The position numbers and the translations under genes are program-made. From contig CM075995.1 in the NCBI GenBank assembly GCA_038087875.1, positions 746,001-809,812 on the forward strand: a stretch of 63,812 nt of DNA, in the 5' to 3' direction. This DNA comes from Malacoraja senta (taxonomy: Eukaryota). Shown piece after piece: positions 1-61,906 of this stretch. A model generated the notes under the pieces. It saw only the letters and a program-made list of their open reading frames with translations, searched no databases and was not told the origin of the DNA. Every line of letters starts with the position of its first letter. Position 1 is the stretch's first letter.

Positions 1-69
1 CAATGCGTTTTTATCCACTCACATTAAAACTCTTGGGTATGAGCTACAGAGAGAGGTTGAGTAGGCTGG

Positions 70-269
70 NNNNNNNNNNNNNNNNNNNNNNNNNNNNNNN
101 NNNNNNNNNNNNNNNNNNNNNNNNNNNNNNNNNNNNNNNNNNNNNNNNNNNNNNNNNNNNNNNNNNNNNNNNNNNNNNNNNNNNNNNNNNNNNNNNNNNN
201 NNNNNNNNNNNNNNNNNNNNNNNNNNNNNNNNNNNNNNNNNNNNNNNNNNNNNNNNNNNNNNNNNNNNN
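70..269. other. Assembly gap (200 N)
   Basis: Run of 200 N; ORFs spanning it are artefacts. Confidence 0.99.
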
Positions 270-690
270 GCCTTCTCCCCATATCCCTTGATTCCACTAG
301 CCCCTAGAGTTCTATTTAACTCTCTCTTAAATCCATCCAGTGACTTGGCCTCCACTGCCCTCTGTGGCAGGGAATTCCATAAATTCACAACTCTCTGGGT
401 GAAAAAGTTTTTTCTCACCTCAGTCTTAAATGACCTCCCCTTTATTCTAAGACTGTGGCCCCTGGTTCTGGATTCGCCCAACATTGGGAACAAGTTTCCT
501 GCATCTAGCTTGTCCAGTCCTTTTATAATTTTATATGTTTCTATAAGATACCCCCTCATCCTTCTGAACTCCAGTAAATACAAGCTTAGTCTTTTCAATC
601 TTTCCTCATATGACAGTCCCGCCATCCCAGGGATCAATCTCGTGAACCTACGCTGCACTGCCTCAATCACAAGGATGTCCTTCATCAAAT
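270..690 (-). mobile_element. CR1-clade LINE (HER-like) ORF2 3' fragment
   Basis: Translates to QRRFTRLIPGM..LSYEERL..LEFRRMRG.LIETYKI..RTRGHSL..FFTQRVVNLWNSLP, the typical CR1 ORF2 C-terminus. Confidence 0.93.
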
Positions 691-1157
691 TAGGTGTCCT
701 TCCTCACATGGTGTGGAACCGGAGGAGATGCATATGGTTACGTTTATTCACAACCTCACCCGCTCCCACTGCTTAGTCACTGGAGACCAAATTTGGCCCT
801 GCATAACTTTAGATTTAACGTACCAGCAGTGGGAATTGATCAAGCTATTTAAAAAAGGCTGAAGGTAGACGCAAAACACTGCAGATGCTGGTTTACAAAA
901 AACAACAACACAGTGCTGGAGTGACACAGCGGGTCAGGCAGCATCTCTGGAAGACACGGATAGATGACGTTTTGGGTCAGAAGCCTTCTTCAGATTCCTC
1001 TGTACAAATTTTAACTCCATTGACTCTTTCCATTATAACTTGAACATTTTATATTTTTAAAGATCAAACTGAATAACTCCATTTGCAGCAGCTCTACAAG
1101 TGTCAGTAAAGGGGGTTTACACAAAGCTATTGTATAATTGTATAATTCTGATAGTGA

Positions 1158-23282: not shown

Positions 23283-24052
23283 ATAGATACATAGATACAT
23301 AGAAAATAGGTGCAGGAGTAGGCCATTCGGCCCTTCGAGCCTGCACCGCCATTCAATATGATCATGGCTGATCATCCAACTCAGTATCCCGTACCTGCCT
23401 TCTCTCCATACCCCCTGATCCCTTTAGCCACAAGGGCCACATCTAACTCCCTCTTAAATATAGCCAATGAACTGGCCTCAACTACCCTCTGTGGCAGAGA
23501 GTTCCAGAGATTCACCACTCTCTGTGTAAAAAAGTTTTTCCTCATCTCGGTCTTAAAGGATTTCCCCCTTATCCTTAAGCTGTGAACCCTTGTCCTGGAC
23601 TTCCCCAACATCGGGAACAATCTTCCTGCATCTAGCCTGTCCAACCCCATAAGAATTTTGTACGTTTCTATAAGATCCCCTCTCAATCTCCTAAATTCTA
23701 GCGAGTATAAGCCAAGTCTATCCAGTCTTTCTTCATATGAAAGTCCTGACATCCTAGGAATCAGTCTGGTGAACCTTCTCTGCACTCCCTCTATGGCTAT
23801 AATGTCCTTCCTCAGATTTGGAGACCAAAACTGTACGCAATACTCCAGGTGTGGTCTCACCAAGACCATGTACAACTGCAGTAGAACCTCCCTGCTCCTA
23901 TACTCAAATCCTTTTGCTATGAAAGCTAACATACCATTCGCTTTCTTCACTGCCTGCTGCACCTGCATGCCTACTTTCAATGAGTGGTGTACCATGACAC
24001 CCAGGTCTCGCTGCATCTCCCCTTTTCCTAATCGGCCACCATTTAGATAATA
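23283..24052 (-). mobile_element. Young CR1 LINE 3' fragment, part of the composite insertion
   Basis: Open 211-aa frame QRDLGV..GYGEKAGTGY*, 3' UTR and (CTATGTAT)n tail. Confidence 0.95.
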
Positions 24053-24500
24053 TTTTTTTTATCATACGCCAGGCTTTATTCCGCATGGTTGCTATTAGCT
24101 TCTTTTTCTCTTCCACTTCTTCCAAAACCTTGGCAAGTTCCCCCTCTGACAGAGAATCTTCACTGTCTGATGAATCTGATGATGAGCTGGAGGATTTGCC
24201 TTTCTTTTTTCCATTACGTCTTTCGCCCTTCTTATCACCTTTCTTGGTTCCTTGTTTTTCCTTCTTATTATCTTCATCTTTCTGCTTCTTGTTCACATTG
24301 TTTCTATTATTACCGTGGGCTGGGGTCCTTTTTGATTTCGCATTTCTTCCCTTTGGTTCACTGTCATTGTCACTTTCTTCCTTTCTGTTATTCCTATTGT
24401 TTCTTGCTTTTACCCTTGAATTTTTAGCTCCCCCTTTTTTGCTTTCCACTTCTTCTTCATCATCGTCATCTTCTTCTTCGTCACTTTCATGGCCTCTATT
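24053..24500 (-). pseudogene. tmc2: Captured fragment of a TMC2-like (transmembrane channel-like) N-terminal coding sequence
   Basis: Open frame ..GHESDEEEDDDDEEEVESKK..KKKGKSSSSSSDSSDSEDSLSEGELAKVLEEVEEKKKLIATMRNKAWRMIKK closely matches recalled TMC2 (SLSEEELAQILEQVEEKKKLIATMRSKPWPMAKK); no splice donor, fused directly to CR1. Confidence 0.82.
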
Positions 24501-25289
24501 GAGTCACGGCACCCCTTTGCCACGCAAGCCCAAGAGCTGCTCTGCACAACACCGGCTGACGCTTCTAAGGCCGCCTGGGTCAAGACGAGATGGAGAGACC
24601 AGTGGAAGTCAGCGGAACCATCTAGGCTACACCAGTACATCGATAATAATAATAATAATAATGGATTGGATTTATATAGCGCCTTTCTAATACTCAAGGC
24701 GCTTTACATCGCATTATTCATTCACTCCTCAGTCACACTCGGTGGTGGTGAGCTACTTCTGTAGCCACAGCTGCCCTGGGGCAGACTGACGGAAGCGTGG
24801 CTGCTAATCTGCGCCCACGGCCCCTCCGACCACCACCAATCACTCATACACATTCACACACATTCACACGCAGGCAAAGGTGGGTGTAGTGTCTTGCCCA
24901 AGGACACAACGACAGTATGCACTCCAAGCGGGATTCGAACCAGCTACCTTCCGGTTGCCAGCCGAACACTTAGCCCATTGCGCCATCTGTCGTCCGCATG
25001 ACCCCATGGACGTCCCTGGCCAGGACCTGCCCCGAAAGCAGTGGACAACCCTCAACCGCTTGAGGACAGGCATCGGACGCTATGCAGTAGCGATGAAGAG
25101 GTGGGGCCTCGTGGACAGCGCCTCCTGCGAGTGTGGGAACCCAACACAGACAGTGGAGCACATCGGCACCAGTTGTCCCAAACACCGGCCACCGAATGGT
25201 GAACGAGGTCTGATTGACCCGGACGATGACACGTTGGCCTGGCTCCCCTCAACGGAGCTGCAGGTCTAAAAGACATACGACAGAAGAAG
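24501..25289 (+). mobile_element. Vingi/Ingi-related LINE 3' fragment, interrupted by a SINE
   Basis: SRHPF..W..QW..YID|DPMDVPGQDLPRKQWTTLNRLRTGIGR..WG..CECGNPTQTVEHIGTSC (CCHC finger), stop, very short 3' UTR CATACGACAGAAGAAG. Confidence 0.72.
24644..24997 (-). mobile_element. tRNA-derived CORE-like SINE with L2-type 3' tail
   Basis: Reverse complement: A box TGGCGCAATGG, B box GGTTCGAATCC, core-like TGTGTCCTTGGGCAAGACAC, tail TGTAAAGCGCCTTGAG..AAAGGCGCTATATAAAT and (ATT)n. Confidence 0.85.
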
Positions 25290-33250: not shown

Positions 33251-34975
33251 TTCCCCCTTTCCAGTTTAAATGTCCCCATTTGGCTGGACCTTGCTTCGCT
33301 CTTTTTTTTCATCCTTTTTTGCGTTTCACAACTCTTGCTAAAGGCTCAGAATCTACTCTTTTGAAGAGATATCAGTATTTGCTTTATTTGTATGCTGTTC
33401 TTTCTCCACATGGCTGTAGTTTTTCTCGGCGGTCGTCAGCCCTTTGGATGTGAACGCAATTGGTTCTTCCTTGCCGTTTGGTGCCGTTTGTGAGATTACA
33501 GCTCCAAGACCATACGGCGATGCATCGGCGGCCAGCGAGATCGGCTTCGAAAGGTCATAGTGGACCAAACGCGTGAATGCATGGTCACACTCTTTGGACC
33601 AGTGCCATTCGACGTCCTGTTTTCGCAGGTTGTTCACGCACTTGCTGACCATGTTGCAATCTGTGGTAGATGACAATGCCATAGTTGATCCATCGTAGAT
33701 CAAGGCACTCATGTCAAGCTTGAAAGCTTGGATCCAGTCAATGGCGCACAGGGATGTACCGTCTTTACCAACGACGATCAGCGGCAACATCTGTGTCATA
33801 CCATTACAGGAAACGGCGACAGTGCATTTGCCTTTTGTGGGAATGGGCTGTCGTCCGTATCCAAAAAGGCGGATGTTGGCCGGTTTCAGTTTCGGCGATC
33901 CGATCCTCTCCCAGATGTCCTGACCCACTAGCGACACAGCCGCACCAGTGCCCACCTGGAACTGTAGATCGACGTTCGAGACCCGCAGCGAAATCCTCGG
34001 CTTGTCGGTGATCGTGGACACACCGAGCACTTCAATAGAAATGGTCTCCGCGATTTGGTCGACTGTGTTTTGCGCTTTCTTGCCCTTTCTCCGCTGTCCT
34101 ACGGATTGACACACTGCCTGGAGACGACCTTTTCTGTAACAGGCATAACAAACAAACGGACTCGATATACGGGCACACGATGATGATGAGCAGTCGAGCC
34201 GCACCGGTAGCAGGGTTTCGATCCTCCCCCCACAGGGGGACGGCTCTTCTGAAACTGTCCCACCTTCTCAGGATTCGCTCTGGGTCGATCAACTCGTTTC
34301 TGGCGTTGCGGACGAGTCTGACGAACTGTATGCACCTCCTGAGGGAGCTTCGACGCTGTTTCGCCGGCCATTCTGCGCAGTTCTTTACTCAGCAGCTCGG
34401 CCATCTTCGCACACTGCAGCACATTCTTCAATGAGGCATCCGATTCCTTGAGAATCACCTGCTGGATGAATGCGTGCCTGCAGCCTATGACCAGTCTATC
34501 CCACAACGCATTGTCTTGACACTTTTCGTAGCATTGAGTTATAAAATCACACGCCTTTGCCTTGGTGCGAAGTTTGGCAAGAAATTCGGTATCGATTGCC
34601 CTTCCTGTTGCACCATCCTGTAGAAATCATAGCGAGCTGCGAGGAAATTTCCACTTTCTTCGAAATGCAGCTGCAAAGCCGTTGTGATTTCAGCACATGA
34701 GGCTTCAGTTACTTCTTCTGTAAGTACATTTTGAAGCAGTGAGACATTGATGAACACAAGAGAGCCTTCTTCCTCTGGTCAGTCGTAATTGCCATACTTT
34801 CAAAATATAACTCGGCGCGCATTAAATACGACGACCACCTTTCTCACTCGGGATCGAAACGATTGAATTGCCGAGACATGTTAGTTTGAGTACACTACAG
34901 AACTAAAAAAATATATATATATTTTTTTAATTGTAAATTAGGCTCTTATCTGGGTCTTTGGATGCAATCCGAAGT

Positions 34976-59483: not shown

Positions 59484-60126
59484 TTATTTTTAAATCTTTC
59501 TCCTCTTAACTTGGACCCATGTCCTCTGGTTCACGATTCCCCTACTCTGGGTAAAACATTCTGTGCATTCACCCTACACATTTCCCCACTGATTTTGTAC
59601 ACCTCTATAAGATCACCCCTCGGCTTCCTGCACTCCAAGGAATAGAGTCCCAGCCTGCTCAACCTCTCCCTATAGCTCAGGCAACCTCTCCCTATAGCTC
59701 TGGCAACATCCTCGTAAGTTTATTGTCATGTGTACCGAGGTACAGTGAAAAGCTTTATTTGGTGAGTTATATCCAGTCAACAGTCTTGCTATTGAGGGAG
59801 TGCAGGAATGGGGTACTGATTGGGGATGATCAGCCATGATCACATTGAATGGCGGTGCTGGCTACTCCTGCACCTATTGTCTATTGTCTACATACTATAC
59901 ATGATTACAATCAAACCATCCACATTGTACGGATAGAGGGTAACGTTTAGTGCAAGATAAAGTCCAATTAAACATAGTTGGAGGGTCTCCAATGAGGTAG
60001 ATAGTAGCTCAGGACTGCTCTCCGTTTCTTCCCAGGCTGTTATCAGGCAACTGAACCATCGTACCAACAACTAGAGAGAGGTCCTGAACTATTATCTACC
60101 TCAGTGGAGGCCTTCAGACTACCTTT

Positions 60127-60180
60127 GGGGTGGGAGATTGCAACCTTCACGTGGTCCGCCCTGTTTCGACAAATGCAATC
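60127..60180 (+). ncRNA. Minimal HDV/CPEB3-like self-cleaving ribozyme (predicted)
   Basis: P1 GGGGTGG/CCGCCCT (G1-U wobble), P2 GATTGCA/TGCAATC, P3 ACC/GGT, L3 TTCACGT, GT after P1', vestigial P4, J4/2 C-AAA. Confidence 0.8.
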
Positions 60181-60265
60181 AACCCGGCGCGCACAATCAA
60201 GTAAGATCAAATAGAACACGTTGTCCGACAACTTTAGGCTGTGCACGCCATACGCAAGACGAAGA
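60127..60265 (+). mobile_element. ~139-nt ribozyme-headed non-autonomous retroelement, copy 1
   Basis: Perfect 11-bp TSD AGACTACCTTT (60116-60126, 60266-60276); GAA-type tail; second copy at 61774. Confidence 0.85.
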
Positions 60266-61773
60266 AGACTACCTTTAATCGGACTTTACCTTACAATAAA
60301 TGTTAATCCCGTTATCCTGTATCTGTACACTGTGGATGGTTCAATTGTAACCTTGAATAGTATTTCTGCTGACAGGATAGCACGCAGCAAAAGCTTTTCA
60401 CTGTACCTCGGTACAAGTGACAATAAACTAAACTGCTACTAAATTTAGTGCTTGATAAAGTCCAACAAAGTCTGATTAAAGTGACAAATCTAATAGAAAT
60501 TAAGAACATAGTTAGAGTAAGAAATGTAGCTGGGCCGAATGTACTTTGTTGGATAGAAATGCTGTTATAAAAATACACACCAAATGCTGCAGCGAGTAAG
60601 AATCGCATTGTTCTATCTGGGAAATATGACAATAAAACACTCTTGACTCTTGCGTAACTCAGCGGGACAGGCAGCATCTCTGGACAGAAGGAATGGTGAT
60701 GTTTTTTGGGTCGAGACCCTTCTTCAGTCCGAAGCTGCCTGTCCCACTGAGTTACTCCAGCATTTAGTGTCTACCTTCGTTGTAAATCAGCATCTGCACT
60801 TCCTTGCTGCACCGTATACAGGTTGTTTGTTTCTATATAAGTTGAAAGCTGCTGCTATTCGTGTGCTCAGAGAATTTATTAACTTCAATATGTTGAATCA
60901 GACAATAGACAATAGGTGCAGGAGTAGGCCATTTGGCCCTTCGAGCCAGCACCGCCATTCAATGTGATCATGGCTGATCTTCCCAATCAGTACCCCGTTC
61001 CCACCTTCTTCCCCATATCCCCTGACTCCGCTATCAGGGTTTTAAATTGTTTCAGTTGCTTCAATTGTTTCCTTGCTTCAGTTCCCGAACTTACCAAAAG
61101 GTCTGGACTGAGTAATAAGGTAAAATAGGGGAAACAAAACACCAAGTGGTGTGGAGACTCAGCGGGTCAGGTAGCATCTGGGGAGGGAGTGGACAATTCG
61201 CATCAGGAATTCGCTTTGGGTTCTTTAGTCAGAGGGTGGTGAATCTGTGGAATCCTTTGCCACAGACAGTTGTGGAGGCCAAGTCAGTGGATATTTTTAA
61301 GGCAGAGATAGATTCTTGATTAATACGGGTGTCAGAGGTTATGGGGAGAAGGCAGGAGAATGGGTTTAGGAGGGAGGGCCATGATTGAATGGCGGAGTAG
61401 ACGTGATGGGCCGAATGGCCTAATTCTGCTCCTATTCCTTATGACTTGGGACTCCTCTTCATACTGATTGGAATAAGGGGGAGGGGGGCGGAGGAATTGT
61501 AAAAGAGAGGGGGCGGGGACAGGACAAAACTTGGCAGGTGATAGGTGGATACAGGTGAGGGGAGGGTTAATTGGCAGATGGGTGAGTATGTGATGAAGGC
61601 TAGAGATTAAATTTGGGTTAGGAGGGTGTCAGATGAGGAGGAGTGGAATGTAGAGCTGGAGGAAGGGATGAGGGTGGAAGGGGAGCAAAAGAGAATTGGC
61701 AGACTCGGGTGGAAGATGAGTGTACAAACGTGGGGAGCTGATGCAGGCATCCATTATAATCTATATAATGGAC

Positions 61774-61827
61774 GGGGTGAGAGATTGCAACCTTCACGTG
61801 GTCCACCCTGTTTTGACAAATGCAATC
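61774..61827 (+). ncRNA. Minimal HDV/CPEB3-like ribozyme (predicted), copy 2
   Basis: P1 GGGGTGA/CCACCCT with one A-C mismatch; P2, P3, L3 and C-AAA identical to copy 1. Confidence 0.72.
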
Positions 61828-61906
61828 AACCTGGCGTGCACAAACAGAAGATCAAACAGAACAAGTTGTCTTACAACTTTAGGCTGTGCACGCCATACAC
61901 AAGATG
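61774..61906 (+). mobile_element. Ribozyme-headed non-autonomous retroelement, copy 2
   Basis: Homologous to copy 1 and starts at the same G; imperfect TSD ATTATAATCT(ATATAAT)GGAC / ATTATAATCTGGAC. Confidence 0.8.

What the first reader, a model, noticed from the sequence alone, without database searches (positions are those of the whole stretch)
60127..60265. A ~140-nt retroelement whose head is a minimal CPEB3/HDV-like ribozyme
Seen: a 139-nt insertion flanked by a perfect 11-bp TSD (AGACTACCTTT). Its first 54 nt parse in order as the HDV nested double pseudoknot: P1 GGGGTGG, GA, P2 GATTGCA, P3 ACC, L3 TTCACGT, GGT, P1' CCGCCCT, GT, TTCGA, C, AAA, P2' TGCAATC. The first inserted base is exactly G1, the predicted cleavage site. 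No tRNA A/B boxes are evident. The 3' half forms a stem (GGCGCGCACA/TGTGCACGCC enclosing GTTGTC-C-GACAAC) and ends in CATACGCAAGACGAAGA. Known: L3 UUCACGU with GU after P1' is the CPEB3-ribozyme arrangement, and HDV-like ribozymes process the 5' ends of R2, RTE and Ingi/L1Tc elements. Inference: a promoter-less SINE-like element that cuts itself out of host transcripts, with P4 almost absent. I do not know of a description in elasmobranchs, but cannot check this.
Basis: partly seen in the sequence, partly recalled or inferred. Interest (0 to 1): 0.92.

Follow-up and report, generated by a model that had tools for sequence, protein, structure and literature searches.

The report
Ribozyme-headed short retroposon family
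A 139-base piece of jumping DNA begins exactly with a miniature version of the self-cutting RNA known from the mammalian CPEB3 gene, and the same genome holds a long autonomous element that carries the full version, which hints where the mammalian ribozyme came from.

Summary
Window 60127-60265 is a 139-nt insertion between perfect 11-bp target-site duplications. It belongs to a family ("A") with about 8,400-9,800 copies in this 1.94-Gb genome. Copies have a sharp 5' end at G1, an (AAG)n tail and 8-14-bp duplications. The first 54 nt fit every sequence feature of an HDV/CPEB3-type ribozyme except P4, which is replaced by 5 nt. A descriptor scan found 1 locus in the window and 0 in 60 shuffles.

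The strongest support came from outside the finding:
- A second (AAG)n-tailed short family ("C", at least 1,965 candidates) also starts at G1 of a ribozyme. It matches Rfam's mammalian CPEB3 model in 20 of 20 copies, 8 at or above the curated cut-off.
- A roughly 3.2-kb single-ORF endonuclease/reverse-transcriptase LINE with the same kind of tail starts with a full CPEB3-type ribozyme (52.6 bits against a cut-off of 35).

The three lineages keep L3, the GU after P1' and C-N-A-A. Their P1, P2, P3 and P1.1 helices differ by compensatory changes.

Self-cleavage, expression, the LINE-SINE partnership and the organism's identity were not tested. The kind is known (ribozyme-headed LINEs and their non-autonomous derivatives). 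The P4-less form and the sequence-level likeness to CPEB3 appear to be new.

The parts
60116..60126 (+). 5' target-site duplication AGACTACCTTT
   Evidence: identical to 60266-60276.
60127..60180 (+). 54-nt P4-less HDV/CPEB3-type ribozyme head. Segments: P1 60127-33, J1/2 60134-35, P2 60136-42, P3 60143-45, L3 60146-52, P3' 60153-55, P1' 60156-62, P1.1 GU 60163-64, 5-nt linker in place of P4 60165-69, J4/2 CAAA 60170-73 (predicted catalytic C60170), P2' 60174-80.
   Evidence: Coordinates. All P1, P2 and P3 pairs are standard. The descriptor gave 1 hit here against 0 in 60 shuffles. The predicted cleavage site is 5' of G60127, which is the repeat's 5' boundary.
60181..60249 (+). Body. An outer 10-bp stem (60186-95 with 60240-49, one mismatch in this copy) encloses a variable middle and an inner hairpin (60218-34).
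   Evidence: The stem is perfect in the family majority sequence. The middle (element positions 55-101) is the most variable part across organisms and is replaced in the ~116-nt short subfamily.
60250..60265 (+). 3' end ATACGCAAG plus a decayed (AAG)n tail, the presumed priming and recognition site for reverse transcription.
   Evidence: The motif CG[A/C]AAG(AAG)n is shared with families B and C and with the LINE.
60266..60276 (+). 3' target-site duplication AGACTACCTTT
61774..61906 (+). Second, older copy of the same family (89% identity). P1 is damaged (GGGGTGA). It is flanked by ATTATAATCT...GGAC on both sides.
   Evidence: It does not pass the strict descriptor.

Best explanation
The insert is one copy of a high-copy, non-coding, non-autonomous non-LTR retroposon (a SINE-like element, here 'family A').

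**Proposed cycle.**
1. The element is transcribed as part of a longer host or neighbouring transcript (inferred).
2. Its first 54 nt fold into a minimal, P4-less HDV/CPEB3-type double pseudoknot. This cuts the RNA immediately 5' of G1, using C60170 (position 44) of the C-N-A-A junction. The element RNA therefore starts exactly at G1 (inferred from the fold, from homology and from the genomic 5' ends).
3. The 3' end, a stem plus ACGCAAG(AAG)n, is used by the endonuclease/reverse transcriptase of a compact single-ORF LINE in the same genome. That LINE ends in ...ACACGAAAAG(AAG)n and itself begins with a full CPEB3-type ribozyme.
4. Target-primed reverse transcription then gives full-length copies with 8-14-bp target-site duplications.

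**Shown here.** Family membership, sharp ends, tails and duplications. The fold and its covariation across three lineages. The LINE's domains and its ribozyme.

**Inferred.** Catalysis, co-transcription, and which LINE mobilises the element.
For: **Family and ends.**
- 36 of the 40 matches scored span 1-139 at 96-100% identity, out of 1,718 first-look candidates.
- Pattern counts were 8,433 heads and 9,834 tails.
- 35 of 38 independent tail-anchored copies are full length.
- In 30 similarity-chosen loci, 28 start at G1, one at position 2 and one at position 3. All have (AAG)n tails, and target-site duplications are visible.
- Diverse flanks begin at 60125-60127 and 60259-60268 in contigs of coded organisms A, B and G (1,030, 171 and 17,734 contigs laid; only 3 for organism D).

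**Fold.**
- All pairs of P1, P2 and P3 are standard in the window copy, in a majority-like copy and in the short subfamily.
- The descriptor control gave 1 against 0.
- Positions 1-38 are collinear with the CPEB3 numbering: G1.U36, U20.G25, C22, A23-U26, G37 and U38.

**Source-level variation.**
- Across four runs, variants at 10% or more within the head occur only at three positions.
- These are position 32 (U.G becomes U-A), position 42 (the linker) and position 45 (the N of C-N-A-A).
- Thirteen positions vary in the body (55-101).

**Relatives.**
- Family C starts at G1 in 33 of 40 scored matches and in all 21 aligned copies. It hits RF00622 in 20 of 20 copies, 8 of them at 35 bits or more.
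- The LINE encodes Exo_endo_phos and RVT_1 domains. It starts with a ribozyme scoring 52.6 and 40.7 bits. This was seen at the 5' end in 5 of 8 fetched regions.

**Covariation among the A, C and LINE majority sequences**.
- 5 of 7 P1 pairs change on both sides, as do 4 of 6 P2 pairs, 2 of 3 P3 pairs and the second P1.1 pair (U.U becomes C-G).
- L3 (U-Y-CACGU), G37 and C..AA stay fixed.

**Precedent.** P4-less HDV-like ribozymes are a published class, and their theta subfamily was confirmed to self-cleave in vitro (passages). Ribozyme-headed LINEs and their short derivatives are published.
Against: - Rfam's CPEB3 and HDV models do not hit the window element at all. There was no hit at the gathering threshold or at E<=10 over 401 nt.
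- Nested folding is no more stable than shuffled sequence: z = +0.53 for the head and +0.91 for the whole element. Pseudoknots are not modelled by that tool.
- P4 is missing and no cleavage assay exists.
- Individual copies decay as expected without selection. Only 8 of 38 independent tail-anchored copies still pass the strict descriptor.
- The link to the LINE rests on a shared ribozyme type and a short end motif, CG[A/C]AAG(AAG)n. No LINE shares more of A's tail.
- Family B has the same kind of tail, at least 1,383 candidates and a sharp 5' end, but no HDV fold and no Rfam hit. A ribozyme head is therefore not required for amplification by this machinery.
- A sharp 5' end could also come from a transcription start.
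Confidence: 0.8

Rival explanations
1. The head is a catalytically dead relic of the LINE-type ribozyme, disabled by the loss of P4. It is kept for another reason, such as binding the LINE protein at the RNA 5' end or acting as an internal promoter (as the same 77 nt do in L1Tc). On this view the G1 end is a transcription start.
For: - There is no P4.
- Rfam gives no hit for family A.
- There is no thermodynamic signal.
- Family B amplifies with a sharp 5' end and no ribozyme.
- The first 77 nt of L1Tc are both promoter and ribozyme (abstracts listed).
Against: - Every position needed for catalysis is kept at source level in all subfamilies and in runs of three other coded organisms: G1.U36, U20.G25, C22-G37, and C44 followed by N-A-A directly before P2'.
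- High-frequency variation falls only on tolerated sites.
- P4-less HDV-like ribozymes are a published class, and their theta subfamily self-cleaves in vitro.
- No A or B boxes and no tRNA, 5S or 7SL likeness were found.
Confidence: 0.14
2. The fit to the HDV fold is a chance resemblance in an ordinary SINE of another origin.
For: Short helices plus loose spacers can arise by chance in large genomes. Rfam does not call the element.
Against: - The descriptor gave 0 hits in 60 shuffles on both strands, and no hit outside this family in about 250 kb of flanking loci.
- The 7-nt L3 matches CPEB3 exactly.
- The fold starts on the repeat's first base.
- Two other lineages in the same genome have the same architecture with compensatory changes, and they do hit RF00622.
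Confidence: 0.01
3. The element is mobilised by some other reverse transcriptase, for example the abundant CR1-like LINEs, and not by the ribozyme-bearing (AAG)n LINE.
For: - Only about 6-9 nt of tail are shared with the (AAG)n LINE.
- One locus (L073) has a CR1-like 3' end joined directly to the last ~45 nt of the short subfamily.
- Two of 38 tail-anchored copies sit in or beside CR1-like tails (L085, L106).
Against: - The CR1-like tails are (ATTGTCT)n and similar, not (AAG)n.
- Families A, B and C and the LINE all end in CG[A/C]AAG(AAG)n.
- Families A and C and the LINE share the ribozyme type.
Confidence: 0.1

Closest known systems
Mammalian CPEB3 intronic ribozyme (Rfam RF00622)
   Same: - The order and numbering of positions 1-38 match: 7-bp P1 with G1.U36, L3 UUCACGU with U20.G25, C22-G37 plus U21.U38 as P1.1, and GU after P1'.
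- The majority J4/2 is CGAA, placed directly before a 7-nt P2'.
- The genome's LINE head scores 52.6 bits on this model. It shares G[C/U]AGAAGCGUUCACGUCGCG almost letter for letter.
   Different: - The window element has no P4 (5 nt instead of an 18-nt hairpin), and its P2 and P3 sequences differ. It does not hit the model.
- It is a dispersed repeat with thousands of copies at a retroposon's 5' end. It is not a single conserved intronic locus.
- CPEB3 is stated not to have been found outside mammals (PMC8233481, passage read).
HDV-like ribozymes at the 5' ends of non-LTR retrotransposons (R2, RTE, Baggins/LOA, L1Tc/Ingi, R4, R1)
   Same: The ribozyme sits at the exact 5' end, so upstream cleavage releases the element RNA from a co-transcript. 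The LINE here has almost no 5' UTR other than the ribozyme.
   Different: - The published cases I could read about are mostly invertebrate or protist elements. The primary paper on RTE (Ruminski 2011) is not held, so I could not check which vertebrate RTEs it lists.
- I found no mention of sequence-level likeness to CPEB3 in the searches.
- The LINE's clade (RTE-like or Vingi-like) is unresolved.
Short non-autonomous derivatives that keep a LINE's ribozyme head: R2 SIDEs, NARTc/RIME, and bipartite non-autonomous RTE or Vingi elements
   Same: Ribozyme head plus the 3' end needed for target-primed reverse transcription, no ORF, and dependence on an autonomous element (abstract; passages).
   Different: - Those are internal deletions that share 5' and 3' sequence with their LINE.
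- Family A's stems and body are unrelated in sequence to the LINE found here. Only a short end motif is shared.
- Copy number is far higher than that of the LINE's own heads, about 8,400 against 15.
Minimal (P4-less) HDV-like ribozymes: drz-Mtgn and the theta ribozymes of gut phages
   Same: They lack the P4 domain yet keep the double pseudoknot. Theta ribozymes self-cleave in vitro (passages).
   Different: - Those come from metagenomes and phages, next to tRNAs, and their origin was described as undetermined.
- This one is in a large eukaryotic genome at a retroposon's 5' end.
- Its core is of the CPEB3 type.
Schistosoma Sm-alpha SINEs with hammerhead ribozymes; twister variants in Schistosoma non-LTR elements
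   Same: SINE-like or LINE elements that use a small self-cleaving ribozyme in their RNA processing (passages; listing).
   Different: The ribozyme classes differ. Sm-alpha is described as pol III-transcribed and is cut out of multimers.

Membership tests
HDV-like self-cleaving ribozymes (structure-defined) | Nested double pseudoknot in the order P1-J1/2-P2-P3-L3-P3'-P1'-P1.1-(P4)-J4/2-P2' | tested here: met
   All P1 (7), P2 (7) and P3 (3) pairs are standard. P1.1 is C22-G37 plus U21.U38.
HDV-like self-cleaving ribozymes (structure-defined) | G at +1 forming a G.U wobble at the base of P1, with cleavage 5' of it | tested here: met
   G60127 pairs with U60162. G60127 is the first base of the repeat. 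The cleavage itself was not tested.
HDV-like self-cleaving ribozymes (structure-defined) | Catalytic cytosine at the start of a short J4/2 followed by adenines | tested here: met
   C60170-A-A-A in this copy. The majority of 35 copies reads C-G-A-A (23 G, 7 A, 3 T, 1 C and 1 gap at the second position). This shows sequence only.
HDV-like self-cleaving ribozymes (structure-defined) | P4 helix | tested here: not met
   Only UUCGA lies between P1.1 and J4/2. P4 is absent in published minimal members, so this does not exclude membership.
HDV-like self-cleaving ribozymes (structure-defined) | Helices supported by compensatory changes among relatives | tested here: met
   Majority sequences of families A and C and the LINE were compared. 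Both-sided changes occur in 5 of 7 P1 pairs, 4 of 6 P2 pairs, 2 of 3 P3 pairs and 1 of 2 P1.1 pairs, with no mismatch in any majority sequence. Only three lineages were compared, in a structural alignment made by hand in a script.
HDV-like self-cleaving ribozymes (structure-defined) | Site-specific Mg2+-dependent self-scission | not testable with these tools
   No RNA run is on record and only contigs were available.
Rfam RF00622 CPEB3_ribozyme | Covariance-model score at or above the gathering cut-off (35 bits) | tested here: not met
   The window element gave no hit at the gathering threshold or at E<=10. In the same genome the feature is met by the LINE head (52.6 and 40.7 bits) and by 8 of 20 family C copies.
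Rfam RF00622 CPEB3_ribozyme | Single conserved locus in the second intron of the mammalian CPEB3 gene | tested here: not met
   It is a dispersed repeat with thousands of copies. The organism and the gene context were not determined.
Classical SINE | Head derived from tRNA, 7SL or 5S RNA with an internal pol III promoter | tested here: not met
   ARAGORN found none. Rfam gave no hit at E<=10.
Classical SINE | Short, non-coding, high copy number, target-site duplications, LINE-type 3' tail | tested here: met
Bipartite non-autonomous LINE / SIDE | 5' and 3' ends derived by internal deletion from the autonomous LINE | tested here: inconclusive
   The ribozyme type and the end motif CG[A/C]AAG(AAG)n are shared. 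blastn finds no other similarity between family A and the LINE.
Compact single-ORF APE-type LINE (RTE or Vingi clade) - applies to the partner LINE, not the window element | One ORF with an AP-endonuclease and a reverse transcriptase, about 3.2 kb, very short UTRs, simple-repeat tail | tested here: met
   Placement in a clade by RT phylogeny was not done because no reference sequences were on hand.

The most novel reading that the evidence does not exclude
The mammalian CPEB3 ribozyme, said to have no known relatives outside mammals, may share descent with the 5' ribozyme of this LINE/SINE lineage. On this reading it is an exapted retroposon head that landed in the CPEB3 intron of an early mammal. 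These elements would then be its missing outgroup. Family A would show that the same ribozyme lineage can lose P4 and still drive the most successful retroposon of the set.
Probability: 0.5. Interest if true: 0.9.

Novelty: new variant of a known kind. Interest (0 to 1): 0.8.

Why it matters
**1. [quoted passage not shown] Here a LINE head scores 52.6 bits on the mammalian model and shares its P2-P3-L3-P3' stretch almost exactly. HDV-like ribozymes in general share only a handful of invariant nucleotides (PMC8256844). That makes a retroposon origin directly testable. It also supplies outgroup sequences.

**2. A natural P4 deletion series.** One genome holds a full P4 in the LINE, a short irregular P4 in family C and none in family A. 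The P4-less form is the most abundant. This bears on what P4 is for in vivo.

**3. Minimal HDV-like ribozymes in a eukaryotic mobile element.** These were previously described from metagenomes and phages.

**4. Annotation.** About 10,000 copies of family A, and thousands more of C and B, would be missed by SINE finders that expect pol III heads.

Tried and rejected
- **tRNA, 5S or 7SL head.** Rejected.
- **A longer parent of family A.** The 896-nt 'long copy' in L002 is an old A copy interrupted by an unrelated repeat with 5,695 candidates. Eleven other loci holding that repeat lack A's head and tail.
- **A LINE sharing A's body or tail, sought with patterns that exclude A's own upstream bases.**
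  - One search gave 55 matches, nearly all A copies with small indels.
  - One search gave 140 matches, mainly deletion variants of A and a ~116-nt short subfamily.
  - One search gave 68 matches (14 in the reversed controls). It revealed families B and C but no LINE.
  - One search gave 16 matches, mainly deletion variants of family C.
  - The LINE was found instead by scanning held loci for other (AAG)n tails.
- **HDV fold in family B.** None was found by the strict descriptor or by Rfam.
- **RNA evidence.** No RNA holder was listed and every run was kept as contigs only. Transcript starts could not be read.
- **Thermodynamics.** Not informative.
- **Earlier notes of this scan.** Nothing on this genome or sequence. 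The 8 findings shown of 83 on 'HDV ribozyme' all concern other genomes and were not used.
- **Naming the organism.** No tool names it. ORFs of the window are mostly transposon-derived, and I did not pursue it.
- **Papers not held.** Ruminski 2011, Webb & Luptak 2011 and Kojima 2011 could not be read. They may already list vertebrate RTE or Vingi ribozymes.
- **Prior-art searches that found no CPEB3-like retroposon ribozyme.**
  - none of the 20 listed papers mentions a ribozyme.
  - 3 papers.
  - 21 papers.
  - 3 papers.
- **Dfam and Repbase.** Could not be consulted.
Full report
**Observation.**

Window 60127-60265 is a 139-nt insert between two perfect copies of AGACTACCTTT, at 60116-26 and 60266-76.
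- P1 GGGGTGG pairs with CCGCCCT, including the G1.U wobble.
- P2 GATTGCA pairs with TGCAATC.
- P3 ACC pairs with GGT.
- L3 is TTCACGT, followed after P1' by GT, then TTCGA, then CAAA directly before P2'.

Three details need correction:
- The outer stem of the 3' half has one mismatch in this copy.
- The end is a decayed (AAG)n tail.
- CAAA is a minority form of a family whose majority reads CGAA.

**Is it more than chance?**

I wrote an HDV descriptor with these requirements:
- G1.U wobble and a 7-bp P1.
- A 3-bp P3.
- L3 of 6-8 nt with a C at its third position that pairs with a G after P1'.
- C-N-R-A directly before a P2' of 5-8 nt.

It hit one locus in the 63.8-kb window, this one. It hit none in 60 dinucleotide-preserving shuffles scanned on both strands. 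Across all 122 loci held at that point, it hit only copies of this family.

Two results point the other way. Rfam gave nothing for the window at gathering thresholds and nothing at E<=10 for 60000-60400. Nested folding is no more stable than shuffles, with z = +0.53 for the head.

**A real retroposon family ('A').**

- The window's genome (G000, 1.94 Gb) returned 40 scored matches out of 1,718 first-look candidates. 36 of them span 1-139 at 96-100% identity.
- 33-mer patterns with up to 3 mismatches gave 8,433 head and 9,834 tail matches. The reversed controls gave 0.
- In 30 similarity-chosen loci, 28 start at G1, one at position 2 and one at position 3. All end in a variable (AAG)n tail, and duplications of 8-14 bp are visible.

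For a sample not biased by the head, I fetched the first 40 exact-tail places on contig C1:
- Two are segmental duplicates, leaving 38 independent places.
- 35 of the 38 are full length. Three are truncated, near positions 50, 92 and 100.
- 29 of the 35 have G at position 1. Six have another base there, so they are one base shorter or substituted.

A ~116-nt short subfamily keeps the head and the outer stem but replaces the inner hairpin. A second, older copy lies at 61774-61906.

**Other organisms.**

No run on record as RNA holds the stretch, and all runs are kept as contigs. Expression and RNA ends could therefore not be read.

I laid contigs of four coded organisms at 80% likeness or more:
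- The element is abundant in three of them: 1,030, 171 and 17,734 contigs. The fourth gave only 3.
- Depth rises at 60122-29 and falls after 60265.
- Loose ends of low agreement, meaning diverse flanks, sit at 60125-27 and 60259-68.
- Variants reaching 10% inside the head occur only at position 32 (G>A), position 42 (G>A) and position 45 (A>G and A>T).
- Position 32 turns U5.G32 into U5-A32. Position 42 lies in the linker that replaces P4. Position 45 is the N of C-N-A-A.
- The body (55-101) has 13 such positions. The last 38 nt have none.

The head and the tail are therefore the conserved parts at the level of the source sequences. Individual copies simply decay: only 8 of 38 independent tail-anchored copies still pass the strict descriptor.

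**Comparison with CPEB3.**

Passages in PMC4836649 and in the preprint 10.1101/2022.09.22.508989 give these CPEB3 features:
- G1.U36 and U20.G25.
- C22 in P1.1, which has one G-C and one U-U pair.
- A23-C-G-U26 in L3.
- G37 and U38.
- A 4-nt J4/2 with C57 and two adenines.
- A total length of 67 nt.

The Rfam consensus printed and 72 reads GGGGGCC-AcA-GCAGAA-GCG-UUCACGU-CGC-GGCCCCU-GU-[P4]-CGAA-UUCUGC. Positions 1-38 of the window element are collinear with this. Removing the 18-nt P4 and inserting 5 nt gives 54 nt.

P4-less 'minimal' HDV-like ribozymes are a published class, and their theta subfamily was confirmed to self-cleave in vitro (preprint 10.1101/2023.06.13.544163, passages read).

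**Relatives in the same genome.**

Searching for a LINE with A's tail failed. The search did uncover two more short (AAG)n-tailed families.

Family B:
- About 178 nt, with at least 1,383 candidates.
- No HDV fold and no Rfam hit.

Family C:
- About 195 nt, with at least 1,965 candidates. 33 of 40 scored matches start at query position 1.
- All 21 aligned copies begin at GGCCCC, with unrelated flanks upstream.
- Its head hits Rfam RF00622 'Mammalian CPEB3 ribozyme' in 20 of 20 further copies at E<=0.0013. Eight are at or above the 35-bit cut-off, the best at 39.9.
- Its parse is P1 GGCCCC/GGGGCU (6 bp, with G1.U), P2 GCAGAA/UUCUGC, P3 GCG/CGC, L3 UCCACGU, GG, a short irregular P4, then CUAA.

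**The autonomous element.**

Scanning the 316 kb I held for other (AAG)n tails found a 5'-truncated LINE copy beside an A copy in L019. Its ORF runs to within about 30 nt of ...GACACGAAAAG(AAG)n. Copies at 95-97% identity are common in the genome.

Two long copies (L143, L144) show:
- An element of about 3.2 kb.
- One ORF of roughly 1,000 aa with Exo_endo_phos and RVT_1 domains and a C-terminal CCHC motif.
- A 3' UTR of about 27 nt.

Its first bases are a complete CPEB3-type ribozyme. RF00622 scores 52.6 bits (E = 3e-12) and 40.7 bits.

Five of eight fetched 5' regions show this ribozyme at the very 5' end, next to unrelated flanks. For one of the three others, one search shows that I fetched the wrong stretch.

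The majority of the five copies reads GGGGAUC-AAG-GUAGAA-GCG-UUCACGU-CGC-GAUCCCU-GU-(8-bp P4 with an 8-nt loop)-CGAA-UUCUAC. The start codon follows about 10 nt later. Only 15 such heads exist genome-wide, counted with a 36-mer at up to 3 mismatches.

I could not place the LINE's clade. Compact single-ORF APE-type LINEs include RTE and Vingi (PMC13708176).

**Covariation.**

I compared the majority sequences of A, C and the LINE:
- Pairs 1 and 2 of P1 are constant (G.U, G-C). Pairs 3-7 change on both sides, for example G-C to C-G and A-U to C-G or U-A.
- 4 of 6 P2 pairs change on both sides.
- 2 of 3 P3 pairs change on both sides.
- The second P1.1 pair goes from U.U (A, LINE, CPEB3) to C-G (C).
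- L3 (U-Y-CACGU), G37 and C-N-A-A stay fixed.
- No majority sequence has a mismatch. Single LINE copies have private ones.

Only three lineages were compared, in a hand-made structural alignment. The pattern is nevertheless what a functional HDV fold predicts. In all three lineages the fold starts on the element's first base.

**Mechanism.**

The best reading, at 0.8, is this. Family A is a non-autonomous retroposon whose RNA is released from longer transcripts by its own P4-less ribozyme, which cuts 5' of G1. The RNA is then copied by the (AAG)n LINE's protein, starting at CG[A/C]AAG(AAG)n.

Catalysis, co-transcription and the partnership are all inferences. Points against this reading:
- There is no Rfam hit for A.
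- There is no P4.
- There is no RNA or biochemical evidence.
- Only a short tail motif links A to the LINE.
- Family B does well without a ribozyme.

The main rival, at 0.14, is a catalytically dead relic head with a transcription start at G1.

**What is known and what is new.**

Already in print:
- HDV-like ribozymes at LINE 5' ends (R2, RTE, LOA/Baggins, Ingi/L1Tc, R4, R1).
- Short derivatives that keep them (R2 SIDEs, NARTc).
- Bipartite non-autonomous RTE and Vingi elements.

Sources read for this were the abstract and passages. The kind is therefore not new.

I did not find the following in print:
- A P4-less HDV-like ribozyme heading a eukaryotic retroposon.
- A transposon ribozyme that matches the mammalian CPEB3 model at sequence level.

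Three likely sources were not held, and Dfam and Repbase could not be consulted.

Context for the CPEB3 comparison:
- A review notes that only six nucleotides are invariant among HDV-like ribozymes.
- The human genome keeps traces of RTE and Vingi LINEs.

Together these make an exaptation origin of the CPEB3 ribozyme from such an element plausible and testable.

One caveat applies. No tool names the organism.

**Verdict.**

The finding widens into a three-tier system of ribozyme-headed elements: the LINE, family C and family A. Novelty: new variant of a known kind. Interest: 0.8.

Noticed in passing
L117, L118, L120 (e.g. L120:488-665): Family B is a ~178-nt (AAG)n-tailed repeat with at least 1,383 candidates and a sharp 5' end at GCGGAGCAG. 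It has no HDV fold and no Rfam hit. One reading frame looks like the C-terminal end of a LINE ORF (...HVISGCP...*). How its 5' end is defined is unexplained.
   Followed up: partly
L143 and L144, minus strand, the first ~200 nt of the LINE: Two full-length LINE copies carry 6 and 4 tandem copies of a 26-nt partial ribozyme unit (the 3' part of P1 through P3'). Only after these comes the one unit that is followed by a complete P1'. Three other copies have a single unit. The extra units would sit in J1/2. They may come from slippage or template jumps at the RNA 5' end.
   Followed up: partly
L073 (G000:C1:40590090-40591300, minus strand): A CR1-like LINE 3' end with an (ATTGTCT)n tail is joined directly to the last ~45 nt of the short family A subfamily plus (AAG)n. 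This is either a template-switch chimera or a chance adjacency (n = 1).
   Followed up: no
L002:2010-2905: An old family A copy is split at about position 84-88 by a ~750-bp GC-rich repeat. That repeat is itself abundant (5,695 first-look candidates) and occurs elsewhere without A's ends.
   Followed up: partly
L076:741-826; similar strings in the flanks of L074, L086 and L119: A long, near-perfect hairpin repeat (...GGGTCGAGACCC...GGGTCTCGACCCGAA...) gives weak sub-threshold hits to miRNA-precursor models (26.6 bits against a cut-off of 230). It is probably a common palindromic repeat of this genome.
   Followed up: no
window 23904-24503 (-): An ORF rich in acidic, basic and serine runs (...EEVEEKKKLIATMRNKAWRM...) may be an exon of a host gene. 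The rest of the long ORFs in the window look transposon-derived (CR1-like RT fragments, and a retrovirus-like pol fragment at 33353-34267).
   Followed up: no
window 44-703: The translation shows a run of X, meaning the window holds a masked or undetermined stretch inside a CR1-like ORF.
   Followed up: no
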